Positions 1 to 63,920 of a stretch of 63,920 bases of DNA are shown one piece after another (positions within the stretch are counted from its first letter, which is position 1; each line of letters begins with the position of its first letter). The position numbers were made by a program, and so were the translations under genes. Source of the DNA: a virus; IMG/VR virus record IMGVR_UViG_3300010222_000003, positions 1 through 63,920 of that record, one strand, 5' to 3'. The notes under the pieces were generated by a model. It saw only the letters and a list, made by a program, of their open reading frames with translations, ran no database searches and was not told where the DNA came from.

Positions 1-181
1 GGGTCATTAGAAACCAGCAAAAGTTTCTGGTTCATAGACTCGGATTCTGGGAACCAGATTCTCCTTTCTTGTAGCAACCAAAATCGGTATGATAAGCCGG
101 AAGCCTTTGCCGGTACATAGAAGAAACCAGGCGCTCAGGGCCTGAGCGCCTAAAGTAGTAGTAATTAATCTGGTAGGTCGG
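1..181 (-). repeat. Structured intergenic element, copy A (five-member family; candidate ncRNA or 5' leader)
   Basis: Aligns by eye over ~180 nt with 60364-60543(+), 46729-46908(-) and 56418-56589(+). AT box 152-181, perfect 10-bp hairpin 129-151, inverted arms 97-114 / 13-33, invariant core 66-84. On the minus strand it points through the circular junction at the gene starting at 63798. Confidence 0.9.
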
Positions 182-227
182 GTAATCGGAGCGGCGGCCC
201 TGGATTCGACGGAACCAGCAACACCTC

Positions 228-251: not shown

Positions 252-280
252 CGAAGCAACGGCTCAAAACCGAACTGTCC

Positions 281-10404: not shown

Positions 10405-10442
10405 AAGGTTTGGTACTGTCCGCCGAGGCTAAAAACTTTCCC

Positions 10443-10461: not shown

Positions 10462-10462
10462 C

Positions 10463-12989: not shown

Positions 12990-13040
12990 GGGTTTTCGAC
13001 CCATTTGGGTAGAATACGGGGTAACTAATAAATCTGTCGT
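12987..13040 (-). promoter_or_regulatory. Conserved promoter plus hairpin-leader cassette P1
   Basis: Minus strand reads TTTATTA-N22-TGGGTCGAAAACCC-ATGAC. About 55 nt match 58947-59000 with two mismatches. Confidence 0.65.
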
Positions 13041-13061
13041 TCCGGACTACAGGCCCCGGTG

Positions 13062-14687: not shown

Positions 14688-15560
14688 TTAGCTCTTCGGG
14701 TCTTCGCCGGTCAACCCTTCCTCTTGGATTTGATACAGCACAGTTCGAAGCGTAACCGGATCGACACCACAAACGTCCGCAATTCGCTTCTGAGAAATAT
14801 CGTCCGTGACGAAGTACAGCGCCCCGGCAACGATACCACACGGGTTCCGCCCGTTCTTAAACGATTCATCCAGTTCCTTAGTAATCCGTGTTGCCCGAAG
14901 CCGGGTGTCCGTATCCAGGTCTAACTTCGTTCCGAACCGGCCAACATATTGTTCCGTTGACTGGATCGGTATCGACAAGTCCATTTTGCGGCGAATATAA
15001 TCGACGGACTGTTTAACCCCGCGCGTGTCCGTATTACAAGCTTCGGCTATTTCTTCGTAGGTTCGTGGCACTTCGTTGATCCGCAGCACAATATAGTACA
15101 AACCGGCTACGCTGGCTTCGATAGACCTGCCGCGGAACGTATGTTTATCGGCAACCTGATCGTACAAAGCAATAACCTGATTAACAAATTCGTCGGGGAC
15201 TTCAAGAATCCCGCCGCAGGTCCGCATTTTGTCATAGGCGACGTGGCGCGTGCGGCTAAATTCGTTGTGTTTGGCGCGCTTGTTCAACCGCTTCATACGC
15301 CGCATTTTAAATTCCTCGGTGCCGTCGTACTCGTCCGGATTAAACAGCGTAACGACACCCCGGTCCAAGTGTTGCCGGTTCCGCGGCGGACCGGTTCGCT
15401 TCTTCCGGTCGTTTTCATCAGGGGTAAACGCGCGCCACTCTTCGCCTTGGTCGATATTTACTTTCTCTTCAAGCACCAAACCGCACTCATTACAGTAGTT
15501 CTCATTATCATCAGCAATTACATCCTCAGAACCACATTCGCTACAAGTAAGCTCAGGCAT
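14688..15560 (-). CDS. tfb: Transcription initiation factor B (TFB/TFIIB) homologue
   Basis: N-terminal Zn ribbon CSECG-x15-CNECG, the DQGEEWRAF B-reader-like motif, and two cyclin-like repeats (RGRSIEASVAGLYYIVLR; GRNPCGIVAGALYFV). Confidence 0.9.
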   Translation of the reverse strand: MPELTCSECGSEDVIADDNENYCNECGLVLEEKVNIDQGEEWRAFTPDENDRKKRTGPPRNRQHLDRGVVTLFNPDEYDGTEEFKMRRMKRLNKRAKHNEFSRTRHVAYDKMRTCGGILEVPDEFVNQVIALYDQVADKHTFRGRSIEASVAGLYYIVLRINEVPRTYEEIAEACNTDTRGVKQSVDYIRRKMDLSIPIQSTEQYVGRFGTKLDLDTDTRLRATRITKELDESFKNGRNPCGIVAGALYFVTDDISQKRIADVCGVDPVTLRTVLYQIQEEGLTGEDPKS

Positions 15561-22530: not shown

Positions 22531-22563
22531 CGTCGATCCAGCGTAAACCGCACGCTGGATGGG

Positions 22564-22585
22564 GCGTTGAATGCTTATTCAGCGC
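22564..22585. repeat. T2 palindrome copy 2 (degenerate: GCGTTGAAT-GCTT-ATTCAGCGC)
   Basis: One arm carries a mismatch. Lies between element B and the next gene. Confidence 0.7.
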
Positions 22586-22616: not shown

Positions 22617-22720
22617 GGCCCTGAGTGCCTGCGCTCAGGACAAGGCGGCAAAGCTTTCTGGTTCGTTGCCTCGAAATCTGGGAACCAGATTCCCCTTTCT
22701 TGTAGCAACCAAAATCGACC
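22617..22720 (-). repeat. Structured intergenic element, copy B (5'-truncated)
   Basis: Keeps the core, core hairpin (22673-22693) and right arm. Lacks the AT box, hairpin 1 and left arm. Confidence 0.85.
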
Positions 22721-22853
22721 CAAGGCTACTTAGACTGACATATCAGTATAAGCAACCAAGCTAATTGACAAGTTGACCCGAAAACTACGAATTTAGCCCC
22801 AAAAGTTGCCGGAAAAAGAGGTTCGCGCTATAGATGTATCTATCCAGGTTGTT

Positions 22854-26084: not shown

Positions 26085-26160
26085 AGTTTCTATAGGAGGG
26101 GTTTTTGCTGATCATAACGGTTCTGTCGTACTACCCGAACTTAAACCTTAGCGTTCCTCG

Positions 26161-26181
26161 GTGCGCTGCGAAGCAGCGCAC
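26161..26181 (-). terminator. T1 hairpin copy (GTGCGCTGC-GAA-GCAGCGCAC)
   Basis: Perfect 9-bp stem just after the stop of CDS 26184-26771. Confidence 0.6.
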
Positions 26182-26183
26182 TT

Positions 26184-26771
26184 CTATTTTGCTAACGCGG
26201 TTGCCAATGCAATCAGGCACTTGTTTCGCCCGTTCCCTTCGTAGGTGGTAAGTAAGTGGTGGAACGGGGAAACGCCGTACTCTGGCGGGTTATCATGCCA
26301 TACGACTGTCGGTGTGTTCGGTTCGGGGCTGTCTCCGGTGTTCGGTTCGTATGCGTTCGGTTCTTCGGTGTCTAAGGCGGTTTCTAAGCGCGCTATGTAG
26401 CCGAACGCTGCGGCGACTTCGTAGCCGGTTCCTGGCGACGCTATGCCGTTGTTACGAACCAGCAGCGCGTCGGCTTTGCGCACCGAGGCTAACGACTGAC
26501 TGACAATTTTGTGTGCGTTGTTTCTGATTGCTTCCGGGTTGCCTTGGTCTACTTTTCCGGTGCCTAATTCCTCCGGGTCCGTTTCTACTGGGTCATCGAA
26601 TTGGAAGAGGTGTCCGACGGCTTCGCGAACTTCTAAGCGCCAGGTTTCCCCATCATCATGCGCTCCGAAGATGGGGCCGGCTAAGTACACCCGTCCTAAC
26701 GTTTGGTCCGGGTCCTCTGGGTCTACACCGGCTACCTCCGAAATCATTTCTATGGTGTCAATTGCGTTCAT
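26184..26771 (-). CDS. Nucleoside 2-deoxyribosyltransferase-like protein
   Basis: VYLAGPIFG motif near the N-terminus and SPGTGYEVAAAFGY later. Confidence 0.7.
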   Translation of the reverse strand: MNAIDTIEMISEVAGVDPEDPDQTLGRVYLAGPIFGAHDDGETWRLEVREAVGHLFQFDDPVETDPEELGTGKVDQGNPEAIRNNAHKIVSQSLASVRKADALLVRNNGIASPGTGYEVAAAFGYIARLETALDTEEPNAYEPNTGDSPEPNTPTVVWHDNPPEYGVSPFHHLLTTYEGNGRNKCLIALATALAK

Positions 26772-37822: not shown

Positions 37823-38566
37823 TTAGCAGAAGGGTTTTTCGGCTTTCTCTTCGGGTGAAAGATCAGGGTGATCCCATTTATACCCGTAGCCCGGCGGTGG
37901 GTTGCCCATATACCGCAAGAACTTAGCGGTTTCTTTGGTGCTAAACCTAATTCTTAACCACTTTTCACCTTCATTGACACCTGTGTTATACACACCTTTA
38001 GTAAAACTGGGATTAAAAACACTTTGTTTAAAAATATTGCGTACCCTGCTGGAAACAGAGTACTGCCCACAAGCAGCAATTTTAGCACGCGGGGTCCGGG
38101 ACCGGCTATTAGTATAACACAAACTTCCGTCGCCAGAGTACCACGCTTTAAGAAAAACCGGCGAAGGTTTCAACCCCTTTGGAAACTTTTTTCCACCGCG
38201 TTTTTTGTACCACCGCTTTGCTATTTCGTCAAAAAACGGATGCGTTTTTGTTTGCCAACTATACAAAATTTTATCTCTATTTTTGTAACGCCGATTGTTT
38301 GTTTCGGTTGGTTTGCCTAACGAAAACTGACAAAAAGCGCGATCTAAGTCTTCAAGATAAGCTTTTCCGGATTTCCCTGCCATTCTAACTCTTAAATAGG
38401 GAAGCCTTTTTGTTTTCCATACTTTTTCTAACCCGCCGTCGCCTGCTAATTCTCCGACTACACGGTTTTTCAGACGGTTAGGCAGGTTGGGGTAACTACA
38501 TTCAGACAGGGCATAATGATGATTAACGCTTTTAAACTCTTTACCGCAGGCATGGCACTGATCCAT
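37823..38566 (-). CDS. Free-standing double-motif LAGLIDADG homing endonuclease
   Basis: VVGELAGDGGLEK and LKAWYSGDGSLCY motifs about 100 aa apart, plus an N-terminal CHACGK...H finger. Visibly AT-rich relative to the flanks. Confidence 0.8.
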   Translation of the reverse strand: MDQCHACGKEFKSVNHHYALSECSYPNLPNRLKNRVVGELAGDGGLEKVWKTKRLPYLRVRMAGKSGKAYLEDLDRAFCQFSLGKPTETNNRRYKNRDKILYSWQTKTHPFFDEIAKRWYKKRGGKKFPKGLKPSPVFLKAWYSGDGSLCYTNSRSRTPRAKIAACGQYSVSSRVRNIFKQSVFNPSFTKGVYNTGVNEGEKWLRIRFSTKETAKFLRYMGNPPPGYGYKWDHPDLSPEEKAEKPFC

Positions 38567-38597: not shown

Positions 38598-41500
38598 TTA
38601 GTACTCGGACAGGTAGCTGTCAAACTCGTCTTCCATACCTTTAGCGGCGTCGCGACCGCCCTGGTAGCTGTCCGCACTGACTTCGGCGTTGATATTCACG
38701 TCTACGATATTGACTGTCCCGCCGCCTGCGGCGGCGTTTGCGGCAATGCCGGGGACTTTCTCGGTTAATTTCGCCATGCGGTCCATTTCGTCCGCAGTGC
38801 CTTTCCGCGCGCTTTCCATGGCTTCGGCTACGCCGCTCCGAAGCGCGTCGGCTTCGTCGGTGGCCCCGGCAGCTAATTCACCCATCTTTCGCGCGCCTTG
38901 TTTTGCGAATTTATCCATTTCGGCCACGGAGTCTTTGCGCATGTCGGGGATTATCGACCCACCCACCACGTCTTTGTACATCGATTTGACTTTATCGACG
39001 CCTTTGTTTTTCAGTTCGTCAATTTTGCCGGTTATATCGGAGACCATACCCTTCACTGCTTTGAAGGCCTGTGTGGCCATATCTCCGATGATTCGCACCA
39101 CGTCCTTTTTCAGTGACAGGACTTTCTGTTTGCCTTTCCGGCGCATTTCTCCGGCTTTGTTTATTACGTCCGTGACCCACCCACCGACAGCGGTCATGAC
39201 TTCGGAAATCATCGTCTTGAACGCTGTCACTATATCCCCGCCCCACGTCCGGAACTGCCCCAAAATGTCGGACATGAAGCTTGTAAGGGTCGAAGTGGCG
39301 TCGCTGATCCACTGACTGACAGCCGACATAATATCCGTAATCATGGTTTGGATCGCAGTAACCATATCTCCGCCCCATGTGCGGAATTTGCGCAGAATGT
39401 CGGAGACGAAGCTGGTAATTGCGGAGGTAAAGTCGCTAATCCAGGTTTTTAGGGTGCTGATAATTTCGTTGAACATATCCGTAATCAGCGACCCGAAGAT
39501 TAGATCCTGAGCGAATTGCACGAATTTGTCGAAGGCGTCGCTGAGCGCGTTTCCGAGGAATTTGACGAATTTTCCGCCCCACTTTTTGACGAAATCGACT
39601 ATGCCGCCGAAGAGCCGTTTCGCCAGGTCTATCATGCGCTGTAGCCCGCTTTCCCAATCGCCATTCCAGATGTCAATAGCCGTGCGAATCAGGGTTGCAA
39701 TGGCGTCGAAGGCCCCTCCGAGTAAGCTGAATAGGGTATCGGAAACGAAGGTTGCCAGCGCACGAAGTTTGTCCTGATGCTTCTGTAGGAACTTGGTAGC
39801 CTTGTTAACAAACGCCAGTATTACATCGGCGATTTTGCGGAAGGTTGTGCTGAGCGCCGTGGCTAACGCTCCGACTACCAGCAGGATGTCCTTCTTGTTC
39901 TGTTTCCAGAACTTGGTCAACCGGGACAAGAACGGTTGCACAATTGAAATGACCGATTGTTTCAGTGTCTTGAAGACGTTTACGATCGTATCCAGGGCCA
40001 ATTTGACTGTGCTTTTCCATTTGCGCCCCTCTGCTTGCCAGAATTGGTTAACTTTGTCGGCGACTTTCTGGATGATTTGGGGAATTTTTTGCGCACCGTT
40101 CCGGACAGCATTCGCGACATTCCGGATAATGTTCTTGGTTTTGTTAATCAGCGGCCGCAGTTTGTTTTCCCAGAGGCCCACAATGGAACTAAGCACATTC
40201 CGGGCGATTCCTTCGATTTGGCTCAGGTCCCCGTTGAATGCAGCTTTGATAGCCGACAAGATCCGGTTTGTGGTGTCGCGAATCCCCATGAAATTGGTTT
40301 TCCATGCGGTATACAGTCCGATGACCGCCGCCACGACTATGCCAATGGGGTTTGTTAACAGGCTTAGTGCGGACCCGAGGCTTCCGAGCCGAGTAACCAG
40401 CGACAGCGCCTTCCCGCCGGCAGTGATGAACGAAGTCGCCAGTTTCGAGGCAATGAACGACCCGACGGTGCGCAGGGGGCCTAAGATTCGGCTCAGAATC
40501 GGGGCTAAGCGCGACGCGATCGGGGTCACAAGGCTCAGGACAGCGCCCTTTGCTGTAGCAAAGGCAGGGGCAAAGCGGCTTACGATCGTAGACACCACTG
40601 CGGCGTACTTCGTTTTCAGGTTTGCAACGACCAACCCAAGGGAATTAAGCCGGGTTCCGAGCGCCGCTGCTGCTTTCTTCACTACCGAAGTCTTCGAAGC
40701 CCAACTGCCGAGTGTCGTGGTTGCGGCCTTTACCGATCCGACAAGCCCCGCGGCACCGATTGCCGGAATCAGCGACCCGGTAATCGTAGTTCCAAGAGAC
40801 GACAGGGCCGATAGGACTACGCCACTGATCGTAGACGCTAAGCTGGTTAACGATCCTCCGACGACCGAAGTCTTTGCGGCCCACCCGCTAAGCGTCGGAA
40901 TGAACGAAGCGACCGCCGCCTGATAGGGCGTCAAAGCCGCTTGTACGCTTTGCACGGAGCTTTGCACCTTCGTCTTATGCTTCCGCCACAGTTTTGTAGC
41001 CGCGTTTAGAGTGCCGCGGATAACGGTTCTAAACGAAGTAAGCCGGCCTTTCACAAGCTTACTGGCGGCAGTATATGCCTTCGTGACAGCCGCCTTCACC
41101 TGAGCGCCGTGACGTTTCCAAGACCCCTGCACCCGCGACAAAGCAGCAGTCACGACAGCCGCTAATCCGCCGACTACAGTCCGAACCGTTTGACCGATAG
41201 CCTGGTATCCCGAGCGGATAGTCCGCTTTGCTTCGGTAGCATGATCAGCATACAGAACGTTGAACGTGTTGATTTTCTTGGTAAGGAATTTCAAGATGCC
41301 TGTTACCGTATCGTAAATGGTAGTCGATACGAAATTGTAGGCTTGAATCACGGGTTTGATCCCCGAGGTATGCCGATTCCAGGTTTGGGTTAACTGGGTC
41401 ACTGCGGAATTGACAGAACTTCGCAGTGCCGACGCTACAGTCGATATTTCGCGTTTGACGGTGTTGTAGGCAGGAACGACAGCGGCCATGAGCCCATCAC

Positions 41501-43208
41501 CGTGCTTTTGCCATGCCTTTTGTAGGACATCGACAGACACTTCTACCAGGTTGGAAATCCGCCCGACTTGTTTGCTGATTGCCGAGAAAATCCCTTGGTA
41601 ACTGGATTGCACTGCGGCGACTGTTTGCTGGCCGTTTTGTCGCCAGTACGTTACCAGGTCCATTAGTCGGGACTGGATCATACCGTTTACCCGGTTGATG
41701 CCACCAACTAACGTTTGGGTCAAAGTAGAGACGACCCCGCTTACGGTTTGGCTAACTTGGGACTGTAGCGGCGAAAACGCGCCTGCGATTTGTTTTATCG
41801 CCTGCGTTCCGAGGTTTTTCGCTTGAACTAACGTGTCCCCGAACTGCCGGATCGAACCCAGAACGTTGTTTGTAGCTGTTTTGATTCCAGCAAAATTTGA
41901 TTTCCAGGCGGCGTACAGTGCCGACAGCGCCACACCAACCGCGCCCGCGATAGGGACGATAGTACTGAGCGCCGCGCCAAAGGCACTGACAGCCGCGCCT
42001 GCCGCGGCGAACTGGCTTAGCCCTGCCGCCGCTCCGACAAGGCCAGCGATCAGGCCCGTAATCAGGGTAATCGCGCCAGGGATTCCTCCGAGCGCACTGT
42101 TAAAGTCGGCGAAGGCCTGAGCGGCGTTCTTAATTACACCCACGACTGACGCGAACGCGGGAAGGAACACACCGCCGGTTTGCTGTCCGATCGTAACGAT
42201 CGTATTTTTCAGCAGCTTAAGCTGATTCTTTGCCGTTTTCGACTGAATGGCAAACTCCTTTTGAAGCGAACTGCCTTTAGCGAAGGCCTTGTTAGAAACC
42301 TGCATGGCGCTGTTAACGCCTTCGATATTGTTACCCAAAGCGCTCAGAGTTTTGCGGCTGTAGGTGCTGAATTGCTTTTTGAGCGCTTTGCCTTTCTGGG
42401 TGTTGTTCGCCATGTTTTTAGCCATTTTCTTAAACAGCTTTATTGGCGAATTGTTCCGCATGTTTCTAAACTCCGAAGTAGTCATGCCCAAAGCCGCGGC
42501 GAAATCAGAGACCTTCTTGGGATTGCCGATTTCCTGAGCGACGCGGCGAAGTCCGGAACCGGCGCGCCGGGCGCTGCTGCTAACTTCGTTCATAGCGCCC
42601 GACAGCCCGATGATTTCCTGAGTAGTCAACCCGAGGTTCGTTAGGGTCCCCGCGGCGCGTTTCATCGTATCAACGATTTCCGAAGAAGACGCGGCGGCGT
42701 TGTTCGACAGGGCATTGATCGCCGAACCGAGGTTTTTCACCTTCGGGACGGGGGTTTCTGTCAATGTGGTAAGTTTTGCAAAGGCGGTGCCGGCTTCCTT
42801 CGCCGCCAGGTCGGTGGCGGTTGACATTTTACCAACCTGGGTTACGAAACTTTGAATGTTCTTTTCGGCAACACCAAAGCGGCCGGCTTGTTCGGTTAAG
42901 TTTGCCAGTTCCTTGGTAGACAAGGGAATGGTTTGGGCCATGTCCTGGATGTCACTCTTGAAGTTATTGGCAAACCCTTGGGACGTGACCTTAGCAACTT
43001 CCGCCATTTGGGATTCGAAATTAACAGCTGCTTGTGTTGCTTTTGCGATCCCACCAGCCGAAACTGCGGCTAAGGCCCCACCTGCCGCGGTGGTAGCAGC
43101 GGCGAATTGTTTAGACGAAGCTGCCGCTTGTGAAAACTCAGCGCTTACTTCGTCAGCGCCCGAAGCTGTCAGACGCGTTTCGATGACCTGTGAACCGCCG
43201 CCGAACAT
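38598..43208 (-). CDS. Tape measure protein
   Basis: 1536 aa, Ala/Thr/Ser/Val/Gly-rich with central hydrophobic segments. Directly downstream of the G/GT chaperone pair. Confidence 0.9.
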   Translation of the reverse strand: MFGGGSQVIETRLTASGADEVSAEFSQAAASSKQFAAATTAAGGALAAVSAGGIAKATQAAVNFESQMAEVAKVTSQGFANNFKSDIQDMAQTIPLSTKELANLTEQAGRFGVAEKNIQSFVTQVGKMSTATDLAAKEAGTAFAKLTTLTETPVPKVKNLGSAINALSNNAAASSSEIVDTMKRAAGTLTNLGLTTQEIIGLSGAMNEVSSSARRAGSGLRRVAQEIGNPKKVSDFAAALGMTTSEFRNMRNNSPIKLFKKMAKNMANNTQKGKALKKQFSTYSRKTLSALGNNIEGVNSAMQVSNKAFAKGSSLQKEFAIQSKTAKNQLKLLKNTIVTIGQQTGGVFLPAFASVVGVIKNAAQAFADFNSALGGIPGAITLITGLIAGLVGAAAGLSQFAAAGAAVSAFGAALSTIVPIAGAVGVALSALYAAWKSNFAGIKTATNNVLGSIRQFGDTLVQAKNLGTQAIKQIAGAFSPLQSQVSQTVSGVVSTLTQTLVGGINRVNGMIQSRLMDLVTYWRQNGQQTVAAVQSSYQGIFSAISKQVGRISNLVEVSVDVLQKAWQKHGDGLMAAVVPAYNTVKREISTVASALRSSVNSAVTQLTQTWNRHTSGIKPVIQAYNFVSTTIYDTVTGILKFLTKKINTFNVLYADHATEAKRTIRSGYQAIGQTVRTVVGGLAAVVTAALSRVQGSWKRHGAQVKAAVTKAYTAASKLVKGRLTSFRTVIRGTLNAATKLWRKHKTKVQSSVQSVQAALTPYQAAVASFIPTLSGWAAKTSVVGGSLTSLASTISGVVLSALSSLGTTITGSLIPAIGAAGLVGSVKAATTTLGSWASKTSVVKKAAAALGTRLNSLGLVVANLKTKYAAVVSTIVSRFAPAFATAKGAVLSLVTPIASRLAPILSRILGPLRTVGSFIASKLATSFITAGGKALSLVTRLGSLGSALSLLTNPIGIVVAAVIGLYTAWKTNFMGIRDTTNRILSAIKAAFNGDLSQIEGIARNVLSSIVGLWENKLRPLINKTKNIIRNVANAVRNGAQKIPQIIQKVADKVNQFWQAEGRKWKSTVKLALDTIVNVFKTLKQSVISIVQPFLSRLTKFWKQNKKDILLVVGALATALSTTFRKIADVILAFVNKATKFLQKHQDKLRALATFVSDTLFSLLGGAFDAIATLIRTAIDIWNGDWESGLQRMIDLAKRLFGGIVDFVKKWGGKFVKFLGNALSDAFDKFVQFAQDLIFGSLITDMFNEIISTLKTWISDFTSAITSFVSDILRKFRTWGGDMVTAIQTMITDIMSAVSQWISDATSTLTSFMSDILGQFRTWGGDIVTAFKTMISEVMTAVGGWVTDVINKAGEMRRKGKQKVLSLKKDVVRIIGDMATQAFKAVKGMVSDITGKIDELKNKGVDKVKSMYKDVVGGSIIPDMRKDSVAEMDKFAKQGARKMGELAAGATDEADALRSGVAEAMESARKGTADEMDRMAKLTEKVPGIAANAAAGGGTVNIVDVNINAEVSADSYQGGRDAAKGMEDEFDSYLSEY

Positions 43209-44659: not shown

Positions 44660-44916
44660 CGGCACCACAAAAGCACTTTAGCGACGAAGAACGAACCGAC
44701 ACGGAATTAGCCCAAATCGCGGCGGCCGGCGGTGTCAAAGAACGCCGCACTCTGGCGTTCCGGTACGAACGCGCCCGGCGAAAACGGCGCGCCACGACCG
44801 GGGTCGAAGCGGACCGGGTAGATAACCGCGCGGAGAACTTAGCGAAGCTCTTAGATCGGGTGCATCGGATCTTCGCCGAAAAGAAGGCCCGGCGTCGCGA
44901 AGCAGAAGTGCGCTGA
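44656..44916 (+). CDS. Hypothetical highly charged protein (cassette gene 2)
   Basis: 86 aa, Arg/Glu/Lys-rich. ATGA overlap with gene 1. Its stop codon lies inside a T2 palindrome. Confidence 0.55.
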   Translation: MTAPQKHFSDEERTDTELAQIAAAGGVKERRTLAFRYERARRKRRATTGVEADRVDNRAENLAKLLDRVHRIFAEKKARRREAEVR

Positions 44917-44933
44917 ATAAACATTCAGCGCAC
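44908..44933. repeat. T2 palindrome copy 3 (GTGCGCTGAAT-AAAC-ATTCAGCGCAC, perfect)
   Basis: 11-bp perfect arms containing the stop codon of CDS 44656-44916. Confidence 0.9.
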
Positions 44934-46575: not shown

Positions 46576-46618
46576 TATGGTCTATAGTGGATTCCTTAAA
46601 GGGTTTGAAAACTCGGCG

Positions 46619-46639
46619 GTGCGCTGCGTAGCAGCGCAC
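46619..46639 (-). terminator. T1 hairpin copy (GTGCGCTGC-GTA-GCAGCGCAC)
   Basis: Perfect stem, located between element C and the major tail gene start. Confidence 0.55.
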
Positions 46640-46667
46640 GGGACCGTAAAGCAAAAGCGTAAGCATA

Positions 46668-46691
46668 TGCGCTGAATAAACATTCAACCCA
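46668..46691. repeat. T2 palindrome copy 4 (degenerate: TGCGCTGAAT-AAAC-ATTCAACCCA)
   Basis: Two mismatches in one arm. Confidence 0.7.
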
Positions 46692-46728
46692 CGGAACAAA
46701 GCACCAAGGCTACGGGCCTGAGTACCGC

Positions 46729-46908
46729 GGTCATTAGAAACCGGCAATCTTTTCTGGTTCGTTACGCAGGATTTTGTTGCCCTGATTCCCTCTTCTTGTA
46801 GCAACAAAATCTGGCGTAATTACCCGGAAGCCTTTGCCGATAGATTAACGAAACCGGCTCGTTAGGTCCTGTGCCGCCAAAGTAGTAGTAATTAATCTGG
46901 TAGGTTGG
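46729..46908 (-). repeat. Structured intergenic element, copy C
   Basis: AT box 46880-46908. An 11-bp stem (46770-46780 / 46801-46811) encloses the core. Hairpin 1 is degenerate. Extra shared GGCCTTGCTT with copy D upstream. Confidence 0.9.
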
Positions 46909-46938
46909 CAAAAGCAAGGCCAGATGCCTGCGAACCCC

Positions 46939-48635: not shown

Positions 48636-48661
48636 GTGCGCTGAATGTTTATTCAGCGCAC
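48636..48661. repeat. T2 palindrome copy 5 (GTGCGCTGAAT-GTTT-ATTCAGCGCAC, perfect)
   Basis: Sits exactly between the convergent genes 47960-48634(+) and 48662-49012(-). Confidence 0.9.
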
Positions 48662-54174: not shown

Positions 54175-56106
54175 CTAATCTGATCCTCCTACGGAATTGA
54201 ATAGGGCGTGCTGCGCTATAAAGGTAGTTAACCGCTCTTCAAACTCTTCGCGCTCAGCTTCGAAGTCCCGATCATTGCCGCTGTCTTCGTCCGCAGCGCC
54301 GTCATGAATTACCGAGCCCCCCCGTTCGATCCGCAGGCCCGACAAGTCGCCTTCGTAACTCAAATCAGCGCCCGGGTCAATACGGAAGAGCCCATCCGAG
54401 TTACCAACCCACACCATTCCACCGGCCTGCTGGCCGTCGGGTTTGACGTAATCCGTGTCCGAAGCCGACTGATCCCCGTCGTAGTACATTCGGCCGCCGG
54501 AACACGCAAATTGATACCCGCGGGCTGTCCCATCGATGTCCTCCGATTCAATGGCAAACGCTTCAAGCACTTCGGCGTCTTCGGGAATCGTCGATTCGCC
54601 GCCGATTTCATCAATATCTACTTCGTCCCCATCGATCCGGACCGTAACCGGGTTATCAGCGTTAAACTCGGTGATTTCGCCAGTGTACGCGAAGGGGTCC
54701 TGTCCGAAACCGCCGCGTACCAGGCCTTCGACGCCCTTCATGTCGGGCATAATGCTGTCCGTACTTCCGAGCGGTTCGCCGCCCTCCGACGGCGGAATAA
54801 TCTGCCCGGATACACGGAAGTCGTAATTAGCATCCTGATCCGAGTCTACAATAACTTCGATCAGGTGGGTTTCCTGCGGGTCCGGCTCCGGTTCGGGCTC
54901 AGGCTCCGGTTCGGGCTCCGGTTCGGGCTCCGGTTCGATAACCTCGGTTTCGACCGGTATCGGCTGTCCGTTCAACCGCACACTGACGTTTTCCAGGCCC
55001 GCTTCGGTGCCGCGAAGGCGCACGTTATTGATATGCGGGTCGTGTTCGCTGATGACAGTGTATACGTCAGTGCCGCCTTCGACTTTCCCGGTAGCACTGT
55101 GTTCATCCTCAGCGATTTCGTCCCCATCACCGATGTTCGTCCGTTCCGTAGCTTTGACCCACCCCGAAACGTCTACCCAGTAGCGTACGACCTCCGAGGA
55201 ACCGCCCTCATCGTCTACGACAAAGCGGTGTTCACCGTCATTCTGTGCCGAGCCATAGCCCTGGCCCTTCGCCGCTTGTTCGGCATTCATCGGCACCCCT
55301 TCCGGCGGCGTCGGGTCCGGGTTCGAATCATACGACCCGTTTACCGTGGGTTCTTCCCACGTATCCATGTCCTCCGGGTCGCCGCTACCGCGGTGTGGCG
55401 GCGTAAAGATGTCCTGGCCGGCGTCGATGCTAACGTTCGACCCCAAGGTCACGTCCGGAACCTTCGGCAGAAGCTTCGCGTTATCTTCGTCATGGTCTCC
55501 GACCTGGATACCCTTGCCCGAATCCACAATGTCGATATTTTCGAGGTAGGTTCCCTGGCCGTACAAGTTCGCAATTGCTTTGACCCCACCAACCACGGTA
55601 ACGTTCTTTAGTTCGCAGTTATCAGCACCGACACGAAGGCCATACCCATCACAGTCGCGAACATAGACGCTATCACACCGGAAGATCCCCTGGCCGCCGG
55701 GCGTCTTCGGCCAGGCCACGTCCGCATTGCCCGGCGGAGACCCGTATAAACCGTGTGCGTCATGAATCGGACCCGGATAGTTCGTCGGACCCAAACTAAC
55801 GTTCTCAAAGATCAGTTCACCCTTATGCCGGGCGTTTACGAAACCGCCATGCGAAGTCAGTCCATCACCGACGTAAACATTCCGAACCAGCGTGTAGGCG
55901 TCTTCGTTGAAACAGCCGAAGTAGAAGATCCGCCCGTTATCATCGGGTACGGGGCCTTCGATACCGACGTTTTCGATCGTAGCATTCGGAGCGCGCGCGT
56001 CGATTTTAACACGTTCACCTTCGGCATAGATTTCCTTGTGGCCCCACGTTTCGCCAGGGCTCAGAGTATACTCGTATTCACCGCGGATAACTTCGTGTTC
56101 GGGCAT
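54175..56106 (-). CDS. Right-handed beta-helix (pectate-lyase-fold-like) protein with (EP)n linker
   Basis: 643 aa. The N-terminal half has repeated ...NV.V.G / ...ENV... beta-helix-like rungs, followed by [22 protein letters not shown] and a C-terminal domain. Confidence 0.6.
   Translation of the reverse strand: [643 protein letters not shown]
54881..54937. repeat. Tandem 6-nt repeat (GGCTCC/GGTTCG units) encoding the (EP)n linker
   Basis: Read directly: ...tccggctccggttcgggctcaggctccggttcgggctccggttcgggctccggttcg... Confidence 0.85.
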
Positions 56107-56369: not shown

Positions 56370-56417
56370 TGGTCCGCTACGAAGTAGCGGACAGGGGCCT
56401 TGCTTAGTTGGTTATTG

Positions 56418-56589
56418 CCGACCTACCAGATTAATTACTACTACTTTGCGGACTCAGGGCCTGAGTCCGCATTTTAGTTAATCTACCGGCAAAAGCTTCT
56501 GGGTAATTACGCCAGTTTTTGTTGCTACAAGAAGAGGGAATCAGGGCAACGAAAACCAGTGTAACGAACCAGAAACCTTTGCCGGTTCC
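56418..56589 (+). repeat. Structured intergenic element, copy D
   Basis: AT box 56418-56446, hairpin 56448-56470, and core enclosed by stem 56515-56525 / 56546-56556 (one U-G). Confidence 0.9.
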
Positions 56590-56590
56590 T

Positions 56591-56619: not shown

Positions 56620-56645
56620 GTGCGCTGAATAAACGTTCAACGCAC
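56620..56645. repeat. T2 palindrome copy 6 (GTGCGCTGAAT-AAAC-GTTCAACGCAC, degenerate)
   Basis: Two mismatches in the right arm. Confidence 0.75.
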
Positions 56646-57187: not shown

Positions 57188-57205
57188 AAAATTAGCCGCG
57201 GAACC

Positions 57206-57226
57206 GTGCGCTGCTGCGCAGCGCGC
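57206..57226. terminator. T1 hairpin copy between convergent genes
   Basis: GTGCGCTGC-TGC-GCAGCGCGC, between 56702-57187(+) and 57227-57469(-). Confidence 0.6.
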
Positions 57227-57469
57227 TTAGTGCTTCGAAATTGCCGGCCGCTCTTCCTTTTTCGCCCGGTGGTAGACGACACAGAAGATCCCTGCGGCCT
57301 GTAGCGACATGGCTACGGCGCTAAGAAACAGCGCGCCAGGGAAGCCGATTCCGAGATACAAGAGCGCCAAGAAGACGCCTGCTGGAAGCACCAAGTACAG
57401 GACTGTCAGTGCGGCCATTGCCAACCACGTCCCTGCTATCATACGCAGGTCGTTCGGGGTTAAGCTCAT
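57227..57469 (-). CDS. Membrane protein, hypothetical
   Basis: Start moved to MSLTPNDLR, giving an ATGA overlap with the upstream gene. Two or three TM helices. Confidence 0.55.
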   Translation of the reverse strand: MSLTPNDLRMIAGTWLAMAALTVLYLVLPAGVFLALLYLGIGFPGALFLSAVAMSLQAAGIFCVVYHRAKKEERPAISKH

Positions 57470-57732
57470 TCGTTGCCCCCGTAGACTTTCGGGTCCGTGT
57501 TTTTCGAGAACCGCCGAGCTTCGCGTTCTGCCGCCCGGACTTCGTTGAGACCATTCGCGCGGCTGTGTTCCATGCCCCACATTCGGACCGCGTGACCAAG
57601 AATCTCTGCCTGCGCCGCCAGGACTCGGTTCTGGCGGTCAATCGCCGCAGTGTTTCGGTCCATGGCCTCAGCTAACATGATCATTCCGTCCGGTTCTTCT
57701 GCCGCAGCGCCGTATTCGTCGGCTTCGTTCAT
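57466..57732 (-). CDS. Hypothetical protein
   Basis: 88 aa, preceded by promoter/leader cassette P3. Confidence 0.55.
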   Translation of the reverse strand: MNEADEYGAAAEEPDGMIMLAEAMDRNTAAIDRQNRVLAAQAEILGHAVRMWGMEHSRANGLNEVRAAEREARRFSKNTDPKVYGGNE

Positions 57733-57778
57733 GGGTTTTCGACCCAGTTGCCTAAAACAACGGCAAAGTAATAAACGC
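57730..57778 (-). promoter_or_regulatory. Promoter plus hairpin-leader cassette P3
   Basis: Minus strand reads TTTATTA-N22-TGGGTCGAAAACCC-ATGA. The leader is identical to P1/P2 while the spacer differs. Confidence 0.55.
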
Positions 57779-57804
57779 TTCGACCTGAGCCGAAGACTCA
57801 GGTC

Positions 57805-58575: not shown

Positions 58576-58949
58576 TGTTCTTCCTCTTCGTCTCCGCCGA
58601 CTTGGGTCCAAACGGTAGCTTTCCCGCCGACCAACCAGGGCGACGATTCCGTATCCATCCCGTCAGAAGCGCGAACGGTGCCGCAGTCGGTAAACACTTT
58701 GACTCGGTGGTATTCCTCGGGGAAGTTCGTGGGTTCTTCTTCGAGTGCAACCAACTTGTGACCCCACTCGGGGTTTACTGCGTGTTCTTTCGCCGGCAGG
58801 CAAACAACCAACTCTTCGGTCATTTCGCGGGTCCCGTCGGGTTTTTCGTAGCTAATCCGAACGGGGTCGCCGCCCTCAAATTCGCGTTTAAACGCTTCAC
58901 TATCCAATTCGACAGCACGCCATTCGGCCGCAGGGTTTTCTTCCGTCAT
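58572..58949 (-). CDS. Hypothetical acidic protein
   Basis: Start taken at MTEENPAAE, directly after the conserved GGGTCGAAAACCC leader. Confidence 0.55.
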   Translation of the reverse strand: MTEENPAAEWRAVELDSEAFKREFEGGDPVRISYEKPDGTREMTEELVVCLPAKEHAVNPEWGHKLVALEEEPTNFPEEYHRVKVFTDCGTVRASDGMDTESSPWLVGGKATVWTQVGGDEEEEQ

Positions 58950-59000
58950 GGGTTTTCGACCCACTTGGGTAGAATACGGGGTAACTAATAAGTCTGTCGC
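58947..59000 (-). promoter_or_regulatory. Promoter plus hairpin-leader cassette P2
   Basis: Near-identical to 12987-13040 (two mismatches in about 55 nt by eye). Confidence 0.65.
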
Positions 59001-59019
59001 TTTGGTCTAATCCGCTGGC

Positions 59020-60317: not shown

Positions 60318-60363
60318 ATGCGCCTTATAAACTGCCGGCAGAGGCCCGACGACATTGCTATTG

Positions 60364-60543
60364 CCGACCTACCAGATTAATTACTACTACTTTGGGGCCT
60401 TAGGCACTAAGGCCCCGGTTTCGTTAATCTACCGGCAAAGGTTTCTGGCTTATCAGGCCCATTTTGGTTGCTACAAGAAGAGGGATTCTGGTTCCCAGAA
60501 TCCGAGTCTATGAACCAGAAACTTTTGCTGGTTTCTAATGACC
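60364..60543 (+). repeat. Structured intergenic element, copy E (reference copy)
   Basis: AT box 60364-60393, hairpin 60394-60416, left arm 60431-60448, core 60461-60479, core hairpin 60483-60503, right arm 60514-60532. Confidence 0.9.
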
Positions 60544-60605
60544 CCGGTACTAAGCCGGCGGCGAAGAAGTTATAATCCGCGCGCTTCCAAAGGTAGTGTA
60601 GAACT

Positions 60606-61172
60606 ATGATGGAACCGATCGAAATACCCGACGACCCCAAACGCGCTGCGGAGGAACTGGCATTGCCGCGCCCGTACAAACAAATACAATACCGCCAGGT
60701 TGCGCCGTTTGAAGGCGAAAGGCTCCGCAAAAAGGCGGCATTGGCGCGTGCTATCATGTCAGAAACGGCAGCGCCGCGCGGTTTAACCACCGTCAGAACC
60801 GCCGTCGAAGGCGATCCGACCAACACACTGACGAAAGACTCGGCACACTACCTATTACAAGAAGACTTCCGTGGGTTGGAACCTGTAGAATCCGGACCAC
60901 ATTCACAGGCAGGGGCGGATGTATACGCTGTTTACGACCCCGCCGGCCCCGAAGTCTTAGCGCTCTTGTGCCGTTTATACAAAACGCTGCGGCGTTACGA
61001 AGTTAGTGAAATCACCGTCAAAGAAACTATCATCCAGAACTACGGCGTCGATCCAGCGCACGGCTCTAAAATCTTCGACACTGCGATCCGCGTCCCGCGG
61101 TATGGCGACTTTCTCCTTTTCGACCGGAAACCGCAGATACAACCGTTTGACAGCGGAAAATTCGGTCCGTAG
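60606..61172 (+). CDS. Hypothetical protein
   Basis: 188 aa. A TTATAA box lies about 30 nt upstream. The stop codon overlaps a T1 hairpin. Confidence 0.6.
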   Translation: MMEPIEIPDDPKRAAEELALPRPYKQIQYRQVAPFEGERLRKKAALARAIMSETAAPRGLTTVRTAVEGDPTNTLTKDSAHYLLQEDFRGLEPVESGPHSQAGADVYAVYDPAGPEVLALLCRLYKTLRRYEVSEITVKETIIQNYGVDPAHGSKIFDTAIRVPRYGDFLLFDRKPQIQPFDSGKFGP

Positions 61173-61192
61173 TGCGCTGCGAAGCAGCGCAC
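61172..61192 (+). terminator. T1 hairpin copy (GTGCGCTGC-GAA-GCAGCGCAC)
   Basis: Perfect stem overlapping the stop of CDS 60606-61172. Confidence 0.6.
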
Positions 61193-61227
61193 GGAACCTT
61201 TTTATGACGCCGGCAGGTTATAATAGT

Positions 61228-61796: not shown

Positions 61797-61822
61797 GTGC
61801 GCTGAATAAACATTCAGCGCAC
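61797..61822. repeat. T2 palindrome copy 7 (GTGCGCTGAAT-AAAC-ATTCAGCGCAC, perfect)
   Basis: Shares its GTGCGC 5' arm with a second hairpin, GCGCACAGTC-GGA-GACTGTGCGC (61780-61802). Confidence 0.9.
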
Positions 61823-63862: not shown

Positions 63863-63920
63863 GGGTCATTAGAAACCAGCAAAAGTTTCTGGTTCATAGA
63901 CTCGGATTCTGGGAACCAGA
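63863..63920. repeat. 58-nt terminal overlap identical to positions 1-58 (circular closure)
   Basis: Compared base by base and found identical. Confidence 0.95.

What the first reader, a model, noticed from the sequence alone, without database searches (positions are those of the whole stretch)
60364..60543. Five-copy ~180-nt structured element family, always upstream of and co-oriented with a gene (reference copy E)
There are five copies: A 1-181(-), B 22617-22720(-, 5'-truncated), C 46729-46908(-), D 56418-56589(+) and E 60364-60543(+). Each lies in an intergenic gap and points the same way as the next gene (A to 63798 through the circular junction, B to 22486, C to 46575, D to 56702, E to 60606). 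Read in that direction, a full copy has seven parts. (1) An almost invariant 29-nt AT-rich box, CC[G/A]ACCTACCAGATTAATTACTACTACTTT. (2) A 10-bp hairpin whose sequence differs but whose pairing stays perfect: A AGGCGCTCAG/CTGAGCGCCT, D GCGGACTCAG/CTGAGTCCGC, E GGGGCCTTAG/CTAAGGCCCC; it is degenerate in C. (3) A left arm, ACCGGCAAAGGYTTCYGG. (4) An invariant core, TTTTGGTTGCTACAAGAA. (5) A second helix with a compensatory swap (E GGATTCTGG/CCAGAATCC versus B GGAATCTGG/CCAGATTTC; A is intermediate with one mismatch). In C and D it is replaced by an 11-bp stem enclosing the core (C GATTTTGTTGC/GCAACAAAATC; D GTTTTTGTTGC/GCAACGAAAAC with one U-G). (6) A right arm, GAACCAGAAANNTTTGCYGGT, which is the inverted complement of arm 3 (18 positions pair in E if two G-U are allowed). 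(7) GGTTTCTAATGACC. No reading frame is shared between copies. Compensatory changes in three helices argue for selection on a folded RNA or ssDNA. The sequence-invariant box and arms argue for protein recognition. I do not recognise this as any RNA family I know. Candidate roles are paralogous viral sRNAs, a shared structured 5' leader or antitermination (put-like) or processing module, a platform for the virus-encoded TFB or HTH proteins, or mobile regulatory cassettes like the T4 PeSL elements.
Basis: partly seen in the sequence, partly recalled or inferred. Interest (0 to 1): 0.86.

Follow-up and report, generated by a model that had tools for sequence, protein, structure and literature searches.

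The report
Shuffling non-coding repeat cassettes, archaeal virus
A tailed virus of salt-loving archaea carries five copies of a roughly 200-base non-coding cassette in front of gene blocks: a promoter-like box, a hairpin whose sequence varies but always pairs, and a conserved inverted-repeat body. Parts of the cassette have been swapped between sites in near-identical strains, so it looks like a larger new variant of the promoter/terminator repeats known from other viruses, but its function is untested.

Summary
The five copies are real and far beyond chance. A covariance model finds exactly these five in the window. No homologue turned up in Rfam, GenBank phages, or pattern scans of IMG/VR, JGI metagenomes and GTDB genomes. 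Viruses whose portal is 55-60% identical lack the element in the roughly 20 kb fetched around their portal and tail-sheath genes.

The anatomy is mosaic:
- A 30-nt box is 93-100% identical in all nine full copies, including two sister strains found here.
- A 10-bp hairpin exists in four well-paired sequence versions, so its covariation is real.
- The 18-nt "arms" and the core are conserved in sequence. The arms show no compensatory change, and helix 3 shows one. "Compensation in three helices" is overstated.

In a strain that is 96% identical, orthologous sites carry non-orthologous hairpins and bodies, so modules are exchanged between copies. Relatives have only 58-70 nt where copy C sits.

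The box resembles this genome's own BRE/TATA boxes. The hairpin plus its T-rich tail straddles the start site this predicts and is the strongest terminator-like site locally.

Best reading (about 0.4): a PeSL-like or HF2-IR-like composite promoter/terminator cassette with a structured transcribed body.

Rivals: sibling small RNAs, a DNA-binding or recombination platform, a selfish repeat, or a small ORF. There are no transcript data.

The parts
60355..60558 (+). Copy E, full length (reference copy), including the 5' TTGCTATTG lead-in and the 3' CCGGTACTAAGCCGG hairpin.
   Evidence: I2: 60355-60554 versus 46718-46917; 220 bits.
60364..60393 (+). Box 1, CCGACCTACCAGATTAATTACTACTACTTT. It is a candidate BRE/TATA core (TATA-like ATTAATTA at 60376-60383).
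   Evidence: It is 93-100% identical in nine copies. CAGATTAATTAC resembles the gene-proximal promoters CAGATTTATTAG and CAGATTTATTTAC of this genome.
60394..60430 (+). Hairpin 1 (10 bp, 3-nt loop, 60394-60416) plus its T-rich tail GGTTTCGTTAATCT. A start site predicted from box 1 falls near 60406, in the loop.
   Evidence: Covariation. It is the top terminator-like hit. Orthologous sites carry different versions.
60431..60532 (+). 3' module: left arm 60431-60448, invariant core about 60461-60481, helix 3 GGATTCTGG/CCAGAATCC about 60484-60504, right arm 60515-60532.
   Evidence: The arms are conserved in sequence with no compensatory change.
60533..60543 (+). Tail, TTCTAATGACC.
   Evidence: Identical in A, C and E, but not kept in D or B.
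60570..60575 (+). Separate proximal TATA-like box (GAAGTTATAATCC) of the downstream gene 60606-61172. The homologous box follows copy A (CTTTTTATCCGCGCGCTTC).
60325..60332 (+). Non-homologous TATA-like box (TTATAAAC) exactly 30 nt upstream of where the homology of copy E begins. Copy C has TAATTAC at the same distance (46947-46941, minus strand).
   Evidence: Kept in the sister strain at +30 to +32.
56400..56590 (+). Copy D. C/D-type body. Its 3' tail is replaced by a GTGCGCTGC...GCAGCGCA hairpin.
   Evidence: 210 bits.
46718..46917 (-). Copy C. Hairpin 1 is degenerate. It is inserted between the tail-completion and tail-sheath genes.
   Evidence: The gap is 382 nt here against 58-70 nt in relatives.
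22625..22727 (-). Copy B. It lacks box 1, hairpin 1 and the left arm, but keeps the core, helix 3, the right arm and the 3' extension. A CTTATAC box lies about 30 nt upstream of where its homology starts.
   Evidence: 42 bits.
1..190 (-). Copy A. It continues across the contig junction, and bases 63863-63920 duplicate 1-58.
   Evidence: The junction is confirmed by L056.
14688..15560 (-). Virus-encoded TFB. It is possibly the factor that reads box 1 (inference only).
   Evidence: Pfam TFIIB and Zn_Ribbon_TF. No homologue lies between PolB and ERCC4 in four relatives that lack the element.

Best explanation
The copies are paralogous, interchangeable non-coding regulatory cassettes of a haloarchaeal tailed virus. 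Each full copy has two modules.

5' MODULE: a composite promoter/terminator.
- A 30-bp invariant box holds a BRE/TATA-like core. It would be read by TBP and a TFB, possibly the virus's own TFB.
- Ten bp further on lies a GC-rich hairpin with a T-rich tail. It sits over the start site that the box predicts.
- Transcripts arriving from upstream contain both arms, fold the hairpin and stop or pause.
- Transcripts that start at the box lack the 5' arm and read on.

3' MODULE: imperfect 18-nt inverted arms around an invariant core.
- It forms the structured first roughly 130 nt of that transcript, as a leader or a small RNA.
- It may also be a protein-binding site.

The cassettes sit ahead of gene blocks. 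Recombination between copies keeps them alike and reshuffles them.

SHOWN: the anatomy, the mosaic conservation, the hairpin covariation, the likeness to a TATA box and to a terminator, the module swapping, and the restriction to one lineage.
INFERRED: promoter activity, the start site, termination, the involvement of the viral TFB, and that the body acts as RNA.
For: - Box 1 is 93-100% identical in nine copies from three strains, while the adjoining hairpin is only 51-81% identical between different versions. Selection therefore acts on the box sequence but only on the hairpin's pairing.
- Box 1's centre, CAGATTAATTAC, resembles real gene-proximal promoters here: CAGATTTATTAG at 12990 and 58949, CAGATTTATTTAC at 1039, and CTTTTAATTAGC at the portal gene. 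Those TATA boxes begin about 30 nt before leaderless ATGs. The same spacing from box 1 lands in the loop of hairpin 1.
- From my own knowledge of archaeal footprinting, not tested here, the 30 invariant bases would span about -42 to -13, roughly the reach of TBP and TFB.
- Hairpin 1 occurs in four well-paired versions, with changes on both sides in 6 of 10 pairs. With its T-rich tail it is the strongest terminator-like site in the sense direction near A, D, E and the sister strain's E copy.
- Copies are interchangeable. In a strain 95.7% identical, orthologous sites hold different hairpin versions (59-76% identity). The sister strain's A copy equals window E (100%). Its D and E copies have identical 3' modules, while window D and the sister strain's D share only 75%.
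- Copy C is a lineage-specific insertion into an otherwise conserved late operon. A, B, D and E head blocks of genes with few or no homologues in the fetched parts of relatives.
- Published analogues exist. HF2 intergenic repeats are proven promoters (PMC8707807). HGTV-1 ORFs are preceded by a TATA-like box plus an inverted repeat (PMC3950731). T4-type PeSLs combine a promoter with an overlapping stem-loop terminator and recombine with one another (PMC2839356).
- The TFB gene lies between PolB and ERCC4 only in this lineage.
Against: - There are no transcript data of any kind.
- Every downstream gene already has its own TATA-like box at leaderless distance, so a second, distal promoter is not required.
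- To my knowledge archaeal RNA polymerase terminates at oligo-T without needing a hairpin, and the tails have only 3-4 consecutive T.
- Copy B lacks the whole 5' module yet keeps a well-conserved core.
- In C, E and B a non-homologous TATA-like box lies 30 nt upstream of the point where homology begins. This fits a model in which box 1 is itself transcribed.
- The role of the 3' module is unexplained. Its arms show no compensation, and folding energies do not pick a strand.
- The link between the TFB gene and the element rests on one lineage, and only part of each relative's genome was fetched.
Confidence: 0.4

Rival explanations
1. The copies are sibling small-RNA genes. Each is transcribed from its own non-homologous promoter just upstream. 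Box 1 is a single-stranded seed or protein-binding region of the RNA. Hairpin 1 plus its U-rich tail is the RNA's terminator or stabilising stem. The 3' module is either a second domain of the RNA or read-through.
For: - TATA-like boxes lie exactly 30 nt before the first homologous base in C and E, in both strains, and about 30 nt before B's truncated start.
- The pattern of an invariant single-stranded stretch followed by a stem with variable sequence, conserved pairing and a T-rich tail is that of many bacterial small RNAs (my own knowledge).
- T-runs or hairpins lie between the element and the proximal promoter in A, C and D.
- Interchangeability of copies fits redundant siblings.
Against: - A has no TATA-like box at the right distance, and in D it is 11-13 nt off.
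- No complementarity longer than 10 nt to box 1 or the core exists elsewhere in the virus genome, which is the chance level.
- The host is unknown, so host targets could not be tested.
- The tails are weak archaeal terminators.
- No Rfam family matches.
Confidence: 0.2
2. The element works as double-stranded DNA and need not be transcribed. It would be a platform for viral DNA-binding proteins (HTH proteins or TFB), or a preferred recombination site that mediates module exchange or inversion. In this view the hairpins are palindromic sites or cruciforms.
For: - The arms and core are conserved in sequence with no compensatory change, and with tolerated mismatches at fixed positions.
- The half-sites TTCTGG and CCAGAA recur in the arms and in helix 3.
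- B keeps the core and right arm without any possible long stem.
- Folding energies show no strand preference.
- There is direct evidence of recombination between copies.
- A and E form a 181-nt inverted pair (88% complementary, 58 nt exact) around a 3.3-kb segment.
Against: - Hairpin 1 changes sequence freely while keeping its pairing, which a protein-recognised palindrome would not do.
- The distance from the element to the proximal promoter varies from about 20 to 130 nt, unlike archaeal upstream activating sites.
- No recombinase, integrase or transposase was found among the proteins scanned.
- No inverted isomer was seen in the three strains.
Confidence: 0.15
3. The element is a selfish or neutral dispersed repeat (MITE-like, or spread by illegitimate recombination) with no role in the virus.
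For: - It is restricted to one virus lineage.
- It is absent from the orthologous site in relatives.
- It has sub-families and a truncated copy.
- Assemblies break at it.
Against: - It has no terminal inverted repeats, no target-site duplication is visible at the boundaries read, and no transposase was found.
- A two-motif pattern from the element had no true match in GTDB genomes.
- Conservation is strongly uneven (box 98% against hairpin 59% mean identity) and the hairpin shows compensatory change, which indicates purifying selection.
- The copy positions A, C, D and E are kept in the sister strain.
Confidence: 0.07
4. The element encodes a small basic, tyrosine-rich protein of about 50-60 residues (...LLPTYQINYYYF...YRQR...CYKKR-SG-QNP).
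For: - Sense frame 0 is open to the same stop position in 8 of 9 copies, across five hairpin versions.
- pN/pS is lowest in this frame, at 0.4-0.9.
- Two of the three substitutions in box 1 are synonymous.
- The JGI gene caller called ORFs over two copies.
Against: - There is no shared start codon. The A copies have none, and C, D and E have only TTG.
- Window copy D has an in-frame stop.
- Variable sites by codon position are 16, 12 and 19, which is not significant.
- Box 1 is far more conserved than synonymous sites elsewhere in the element would predict.
- The only homologues among 5.8 billion proteins are the two ORF calls in the sister strain.
Confidence: 0.06

Closest known systems
Intergenic repeats (IRs) of halovirus HF2 and the Haloferacalesvirus genus (PMC8707807).
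   Same: Both are multi-copy intergenic repeats in a haloarchaeal tailed virus. Both have blocks of invariant bases around an AT-rich TATA-like motif, lie at the heads of transcription units, and keep their positions in close relatives.
   Different: - HF2 repeats are 58 or 29 bp and are simply promoters, with the conserved sequence running through the start site.
- This element is about 200 nt. The predicted start-site region is a hairpin of variable sequence, and there is an extra 115-nt inverted-repeat/core module.
- There is no sequence homology: HF2 motifs are absent and blastn finds no match.
- Promoter activity is untested here.
PeSL cassettes (promoter-early stem-loop) of T4-type phages (PMC2839356, PMC4122927), and the PeSL-like TATA box plus inverted repeat before HGTV-1 ORFs (PMC3950731).
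   Same: All are composites of a promoter-like box and a stem-loop that overlaps or abuts it. The stem-loop looks like a terminator for upstream transcription. Copies recombine with each other, and they are associated with variable gene blocks.
   Different: - PeSLs are about 100 bp or less, number in the dozens, and directly abut the Shine-Dalgarno sequence and start codon.
- They use sigma-70 promoters in bacteria.
- This element has 5 copies, lies 60-170 nt upstream of the ATG with a second proximal promoter-like box in between, and carries a large extra conserved module.
- Gene gain or loss exactly between two copies was not demonstrated.
Sibling small RNAs such as Vibrio Qrr1-5 (my own knowledge).
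   Same: Several paralogous copies have an invariant stretch of about 30 nt and stems that keep their structure.
   Different: There is no evidence of transcription or of targets. The copies are in a virus. The body is an imperfect inverted repeat without covariation.
Phage antitermination or processing sites that recur at operon heads: lambda nut, HK022 put, T7 RNase III sites (my own knowledge).
   Same: They are repeated, co-oriented structured elements ahead of gene blocks.
   Different: Those lie downstream of a single known promoter and inside the mRNA. Here each gene has its own proximal promoter-like box. No archaeal equivalent is known, and no bulge-helix-bulge motif is present in the arms (read).
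MITEs (miniature inverted-repeat transposable elements).
   Same: Small, non-coding, multi-copy, intergenic, with internal inverted repeats and a truncated copy.
   Different: The inverted repeats are internal rather than terminal. No target-site duplications and no partner transposase were seen. Conservation is uneven in a way that indicates function.

Membership tests
HF2-type promoter-carrying intergenic repeats | Multi-copy conserved repeat confined to intergenic regions of a halovirus. | tested here: met
   Five copies, all intergenic. The virus is haloarchaeal by its acidic proteome, its TFB gene and portal similarity to ChaoS9 and HGTV-1.
HF2-type promoter-carrying intergenic repeats | Sequence homology to the class I (TCTTTAAGTC, CGTCTNNTAGAG) or class II (CCCTTTAC) motifs. 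| tested here: not met
   The motifs are absent from the element. blastn against 50,697 phage records finds no match.
HF2-type promoter-carrying intergenic repeats | Contains a functional BRE/TATA, with a start site about 26 nt downstream (reporter assay and primer extension). | not testable with these tools
   Only a likeness was shown: CAGATTAATTAC against this genome's proximal promoters.
PeSL-type composite promoter/terminator cassettes | A promoter motif and a stable stem-loop within one conserved unit, with the stem-loop overlapping or abutting the promoter. | tested here: met
   The TATA-like box is followed 10 nt later by a 10-12-bp GC-rich hairpin with a T-rich tail. It is the top terminator-like hit in A, D, E and the sister strain's E copy.
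PeSL-type composite promoter/terminator cassettes | Recombination between copies. | tested here: met
   Modules are exchanged between sites in strains that are 95.7% identical.
PeSL-type composite promoter/terminator cassettes | The unit directly precedes the ribosome-binding site and start codon of the downstream ORF, and many copies flank ORFans. | tested here: not met
   There are only 5 copies, 60-170 nt from the ATG, with a separate proximal TATA-like box in between.
PeSL-type composite promoter/terminator cassettes | Demonstrated promoter and terminator activity. | not testable with these tools
   Needs reporter fusions or transcript-end mapping.
MITE | Terminal inverted repeats at the element ends. 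| tested here: not met
   The 5' end (CCTTGCTATTGCCGACC) and the 3' end (TTCTAATGACC/GGTACTNAG) are not complementary. The 18-nt arms are internal.
MITE | Target-site duplication, and a related autonomous transposon or copies in the host. | tested here: not met
   No direct repeats are visible at the boundaries. No transposase was found by Pfam. A two-motif pattern had no true hit in GTDB genomes or JGI metagenomes.
Any Rfam RNA family | Score at or above the family's gathering threshold. | tested here: not met
   No hits at gathering threshold over the whole window. Only chance-level hits (E about 0.5) on copy E. No tRNA or tmRNA.
Structured RNA (generic) | Compensatory base changes support the proposed helices. 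| tested here: inconclusive
   Hairpin 1: yes, 6 of 10 pairs. Arms: none of 18. Helix 3: 1 of 9. Box-to-link helix: none. The hairpin covariation would equally fit single-stranded DNA.
Trans-acting small RNA | A discrete transcript, and target complementarity. | tested here: inconclusive
   Transcripts cannot be tested. Within the virus the longest complementary match is 10 nt, the chance level. The host genome is unknown.
Protein-coding small ORF | A conserved start codon, an open frame in all copies, and an excess of synonymous change. | tested here: not met
   There is no shared start codon, window copy D has a stop, codon-position counts are 16/12/19, and pN/pS is 0.4-0.9.

The most novel reading that the evidence does not exclude
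The invariant 30-bp box is a dedicated promoter read by the virus's own TFB, working like a phage sigma-factor switch in an archaeon. It is coupled to a hairpin that straddles the start site. That hairpin stops transcripts coming from upstream but is not formed by transcripts that start at the box. Each cassette would therefore insulate a gene block and re-programme it at once. Because the cassettes are interchangeable, the virus population shuffles them freely. The conserved arm/core module would be the common leader or small RNA made from all five sites.
Probability: 0.15. Interest if true: 0.8.

Novelty: new variant of a known kind. Interest (0 to 1): 0.5.

Why it matters
- Regulation of archaeal virus genomes is poorly known. 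Proven cis-elements are essentially limited to short promoter repeats, as in HF2.
- This family is larger and modular. It pairs a promoter-like box with a hairpin that is clearly under structural selection.
- It occurs in a virus with its own TFB, and comparison of two strains catches it in the act of module exchange.
- If the box is a TFB-specific promoter, it would give a directly testable case of virus-directed promoter switching in archaea.
- If the body is an RNA, it would be a new viral non-coding RNA family.
- In practical terms, the repeat breaks short-read assemblies of this virus and coincides with the contig's apparent circular overlap.

Tried and rejected
SEARCHES THAT FOUND NOTHING
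- Rfam at gathering threshold and at a permissive E-value: nothing. tRNA and tmRNA scan: none.
- megablast and blastn against GenBank phages: no match.
- Exact or degenerate pattern scans of IMG/VR, JGI metagenomes and GTDB genomes: only chance hits in coding sequence, checked by reading and with the covariance model.
- These scans did not return the window's own contig or the sister strain's contig, so those collections do not hold them. A negative result there is therefore weaker than it looks.
- nhmmer and the covariance model on the loci of viruses whose portal is 55-60% identical: no copy.
- A translated search with the frame-0 peptide: only two ORF calls, both in the sister strain.

IDEAS CONSIDERED AND DROPPED
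- Homology between the element and 'family R', a different repeat family in the relatives. They share short motifs (CTACAA...GGGA, TTTCTAAT), but nhmmer gives no hit on any of the five copies.
- A bulge-helix-bulge processing stem: the arms have no such bulges.
- C/D-box or H/ACA small RNAs: no boxes in register and no Rfam hit.
- A replication-origin reading: GC skew is uninformative, and five copies in both orientations do not fit.
- An invertible-core switch: the core has the same orientation in all ten copies.
- CRISPR-repeat mimicry: there is only a vague likeness, and no repeat database was available to test it.

FAILURES AND GAPS
- An RNAduplex target scan timed out and was replaced by exact complementary k-mers.
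- The Sencilo 2013 paper on HGTV-1 is not held in the library, so I read HGTV-1 upstream regions directly. They show ordinary CGAAA/TTAAGTA promoters.
Full report
WHAT THE WINDOW IS

The window is a 63,920-base contig whose first and last 58 bases are identical; GC content is 55%. It encodes a portal protein, a large terminase, a Mu-F-like head protein, an HK97-type capsid protein, a tail sheath, a tape measure, a family-B DNA polymerase, an ERCC4 nuclease, a helicase and a TFB.

Three things mark it as a tailed virus of a haloarchaeon:
- The portal is distantly similar to those of Halobacterium phage ChaoS9 and Halogranum virus HGTV-1.
- The large proteins are acidic, with D+E about 15% against K+R about 10%.
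- It carries an archaeal TFB gene.

The same genome is in NCBI under the prefix LMAX01 (63,961 nt) and appears in Logan assemblies of SRR2630167, where contigs break exactly at the repeat.

THE OBSERVATION

The five copies are real.
- The core pattern matches five times against 0.07 expected.
- A covariance model built from the four full copies finds A, C, D and E at 195-220 bits and B at 42 bits. It finds nothing else in the window.
- Homology runs a little beyond the stated limits: E is about 60355-60554 and C about 46718-46917.
- B lacks box 1, hairpin 1 and the left arm, but it shares the 3' extension with C and E.

Conservation along the element is strongly uneven. Mean pairwise identities are:
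- box 1: 98%
- hairpin 1: 59%
- arms: 86-88%
- core: 87%
- linkers: 58-75%

Hairpin 1 covaries: six of its ten pairs show changes on both sides. The arms do not. Ten or eleven of the 18 pairs never vary, two or three change on one side only, none is compensatory, and three positions are unpaired in most copies. Helix 3 has one compensatory pair. The claim of compensation in three helices therefore holds only for hairpin 1.

Folding energies do not consistently favour the sense strand: E and B favour sense, while A, C and D favour antisense.

The orientation argument is weaker than stated. D and E lie in divergent gaps, so either orientation would point at a gene.

Every downstream gene also has its own TATA-like box at the usual leaderless distance, between the element and the ATG.

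HOW WIDESPREAD IT IS

No homologue turned up in the collections searched:
- Rfam
- GenBank phages
- IMG/VR
- JGI metagenome contigs
- GTDB genomes

The hits were chance matches in coding sequence. These collections evidently do not hold the window's own contig or its sister strain, so a negative result there has limited weight.

The closest viruses by portal and sheath (55-63% protein identity) lack the element in the roughly 20 kb fetched around each of those genes.

At the site of copy C, between the tail-completion and sheath genes, the relatives have only 58-70 nt, holding a hairpin and a TATA box. The window has 382 nt there. C is therefore a lineage-specific insertion into a conserved late operon.

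The other four copies head blocks of genes with few or no homologues in the fetched parts of the relatives.

SISTER STRAINS AND MODULE SWAPPING

Exact-protein look-ups recovered two close relatives:
- Ga0496844_00043 (64,387 nt), which is 95.7% identical in DNA.
- Ga0224631_1081427, a 2-kb contig.

The second contig runs from the Mu-F gene through copy A into the 63802 region. This confirms the circular junction, which otherwise rested on a terminal overlap that coincides exactly with the 58-nt exact repeat shared by A and inverted E.

The covariance model finds copies at the orthologous A, C, D and E sites. Aligning all ten sequences and scoring the modules separately gave the following:
- Box 1 is 93-100% identical throughout.
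- Hairpin 1 plus its tail is only 59-76% identical between orthologous sites.
- The sister strain's A copy has exactly the hairpin of window E.
- The sister strain's C and E copies have the hairpin of window D (92-97% identical).
- The sister strain's D and E copies have 100% identical 3' modules, while window D and the sister's D share only 75%.

Modules are therefore exchanged between copies, independently for the 5' and 3' halves, faster than point substitutions accumulate. Four well-paired hairpin versions now exist, plus one degenerate version:
- GGGGCCTTAG
- GCGGACTCAG
- AGGCGCTCAG
- GGCGCGTTAG (one mismatch)

Pairing is kept in 93% of cells. The copies thus appear functionally interchangeable.

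WHAT THE PARTS LOOK LIKE

Upstream regions of about 60 genes show the promoter style of this genome. A purine-rich stretch is followed by TTTAWW-like boxes that start about 30 nt before leaderless ATGs.

The centre of box 1, CAGATTAATTAC, closely resembles several of these: CAGATTTATTAG (twice), CAGATTTATTTAC, and CTTTTAATTAGC at the portal gene. With the same spacing, the predicted start site falls in the loop of hairpin 1.

The 30 invariant bases would then span about -42 to -13. From memory of published archaeal footprints, that is roughly what TBP and TFB cover.

Hairpin 1 with its T-rich tail is the strongest terminator-like site, in the sense direction, around A, D, E and the sister strain's E copy.

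A promoter-like box with a stem-loop over it is the design of T4-type PeSL cassettes. There the stem-loop terminates upstream transcription, and the copies recombine with one another (PMC2839356). The haloarchaeal virus HGTV-1 is reported to have a TATA-like box plus an inverted repeat before many ORFs (PMC3950731). The 58- and 29-bp intergenic repeats of HF2 are experimentally proven promoters (PMC8707807). The HF2 motifs themselves are absent here.

The TFB gene lies between the polymerase and ERCC4 genes in this virus only. Four relatives that lack the element have no TFB at that locus.

BEST EXPLANATION AND ITS WEAK POINTS

I read the element as a composite regulatory cassette with three parts:
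- Box 1 is a TBP/TFB site, possibly for the viral TFB.
- Hairpin 1 is an insulating terminator. Only transcripts coming from upstream can form it.
- The arm/core module is the structured start of the new transcript, or a protein-binding site.

My confidence is about 0.4. The weak points are these:
- There are no transcript data.
- A second, proximal promoter-like box precedes every gene.
- Archaeal termination is not known to need hairpins.
- B lacks the 5' module yet keeps the core.
- In C and E (both strains), and in B, a non-homologous TATA-like box lies 30 nt before the first homologous base.

The last point fits a rival reading in which the element, box included, is a small RNA with an invariant single-stranded region and a terminator-like stem. 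That rival has no support from target complementarity within the virus, and the A copies lack such a box.

A DNA-only role as a binding or recombination platform fits the arms and core but not the freely varying hairpin.

A selfish-repeat reading fails on the uneven conservation and on the lack of terminal repeats, duplications and a transposase.

A small ORF in sense frame 0 is open in 8 of 9 copies to the same stop. Against it:
- It has no shared start codon.
- It is broken in window D.
- It shows only a weak synonymous excess.
- Its only homologues are two ORF calls in the sister strain.

VERDICT

This is a real, selected, lineage-restricted family of non-coding cassettes. It is best filed as a new, larger variant of the promoter/terminator repeat cassettes known from haloviruses and T4-type phages. 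Its 115-nt conserved module is unexplained, and module exchange between copies is documented here. The function is inferred, not shown.

Noticed in passing
L009 9681-9936 and 19773-20025; L005 8897-9137; L016 13168-13420; L013 1239-1493; L011 3591-3805; weak hit in window 8356-8433(+): The 55-60% relatives carry a different conserved intergenic repeat of about 250 nt ('family R'), with at least 2 copies per genome. It has invariant blocks (GTGTCA-GAAA, AATCGGGCGGTAGA, TCCCTTCTACAATAGGG) separated by hairpins of variable sequence, and usually lies upstream of the portal or another co-oriented gene. It is not detectably homologous to the five-copy element. The window hit (E = 8e-4) overlaps a possible 52-residue hydrophobic ORF (8300-8458) and may be chance.
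   Followed up: partly
window 228-252, 44909-44933, 46668-46692, 48637-48661, 56621-56645, 61798-61822; also about 22560-22585: A family of palindromic hairpins, GTGCGCTGAAT-AAAC-ATTCAGCGCAC, lies within about 100 nt of copies A, B, C and D. In the sister strain the central AATAAACATT of the copy next to A is inverted to AATGTTTGTT, a loop flip.
   Followed up: partly
window 294-319, 3406-3431, 10440-10465, 26159-26184, 46617-46642, 57204-57229, 61170-61195: A second hairpin family, GGCGCTGC-GAA-GCAGCGCC, has seven copies. Several follow stop codons, and the one near copy A is followed by a T-run, so they are likely terminators.
   Followed up: no
window 12969-13049, 57712-57792, 58929-59009 (minus strand): An 81-nt repeat in three copies holds a TATA box (ATTTATTAG), a short leader with the hairpin GGGTCGAAAACCC directly abutting the ATG, and the first codons of three different genes. 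It is a duplicated promoter and 5' end cassette. A similar GGGT...ACCC-ATG hairpin precedes the gene at 22486.
   Followed up: no
window 1-58 and 63863-63920, versus 60487-60544: The contig's 58-nt terminal overlap is exactly the 58-nt exact repeat shared by copy A and inverted copy E, so the overlap alone does not prove circularity. Contig L056 confirms the junction independently. A and E form a 181-nt inverted pair around the 3.3-kb segment 60545-63862, which could invert. No inverted isomer was seen in three strains.
   Followed up: partly
window 14688-15560 (-): A virus-encoded TFB (zinc ribbon plus two cyclin repeats) lies between the PolB and ERCC4 genes. Four relatives have no TFB at that locus.
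   Followed up: partly
L054 4595-4996, versus window 63862-63800: The sister strain has an extra 117-residue gene inserted between the promoter that follows copy A and the homologue of the 63798 gene. Its SprT-like gene is 109 residues instead of 256.
   Followed up: no
window 37823-38566 (-): A LAGLIDADG homing-endonuclease gene lies just downstream of the tape-measure gene (38598-43208). The 55-60% relative Ga0224631_1000053 (loci L006 and L007) has one instead between its terminase and portal genes.
   Followed up: no
window 60355-60513 and the equivalent stretch in the other copies: Sense frame 0 of the element (…LLPTYQINYYYF…CYKKR-SG-QNP*) is open to the same stop in 8 of 9 copies. The JGI gene caller called it twice in the sister strain, using unrelated start codons.
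   Followed up: yes
window 54175-56106 (-): A 643-residue protein has an acidic proline/glutamate-rich repeat region, encoded by tandem CTCCGGTTCGGG units at 54874-54933. It has no homologue in the fetched parts of the 55-60% relatives, though the 96%-identical sister strain encodes a 647-residue protein at the same position.
   Followed up: no
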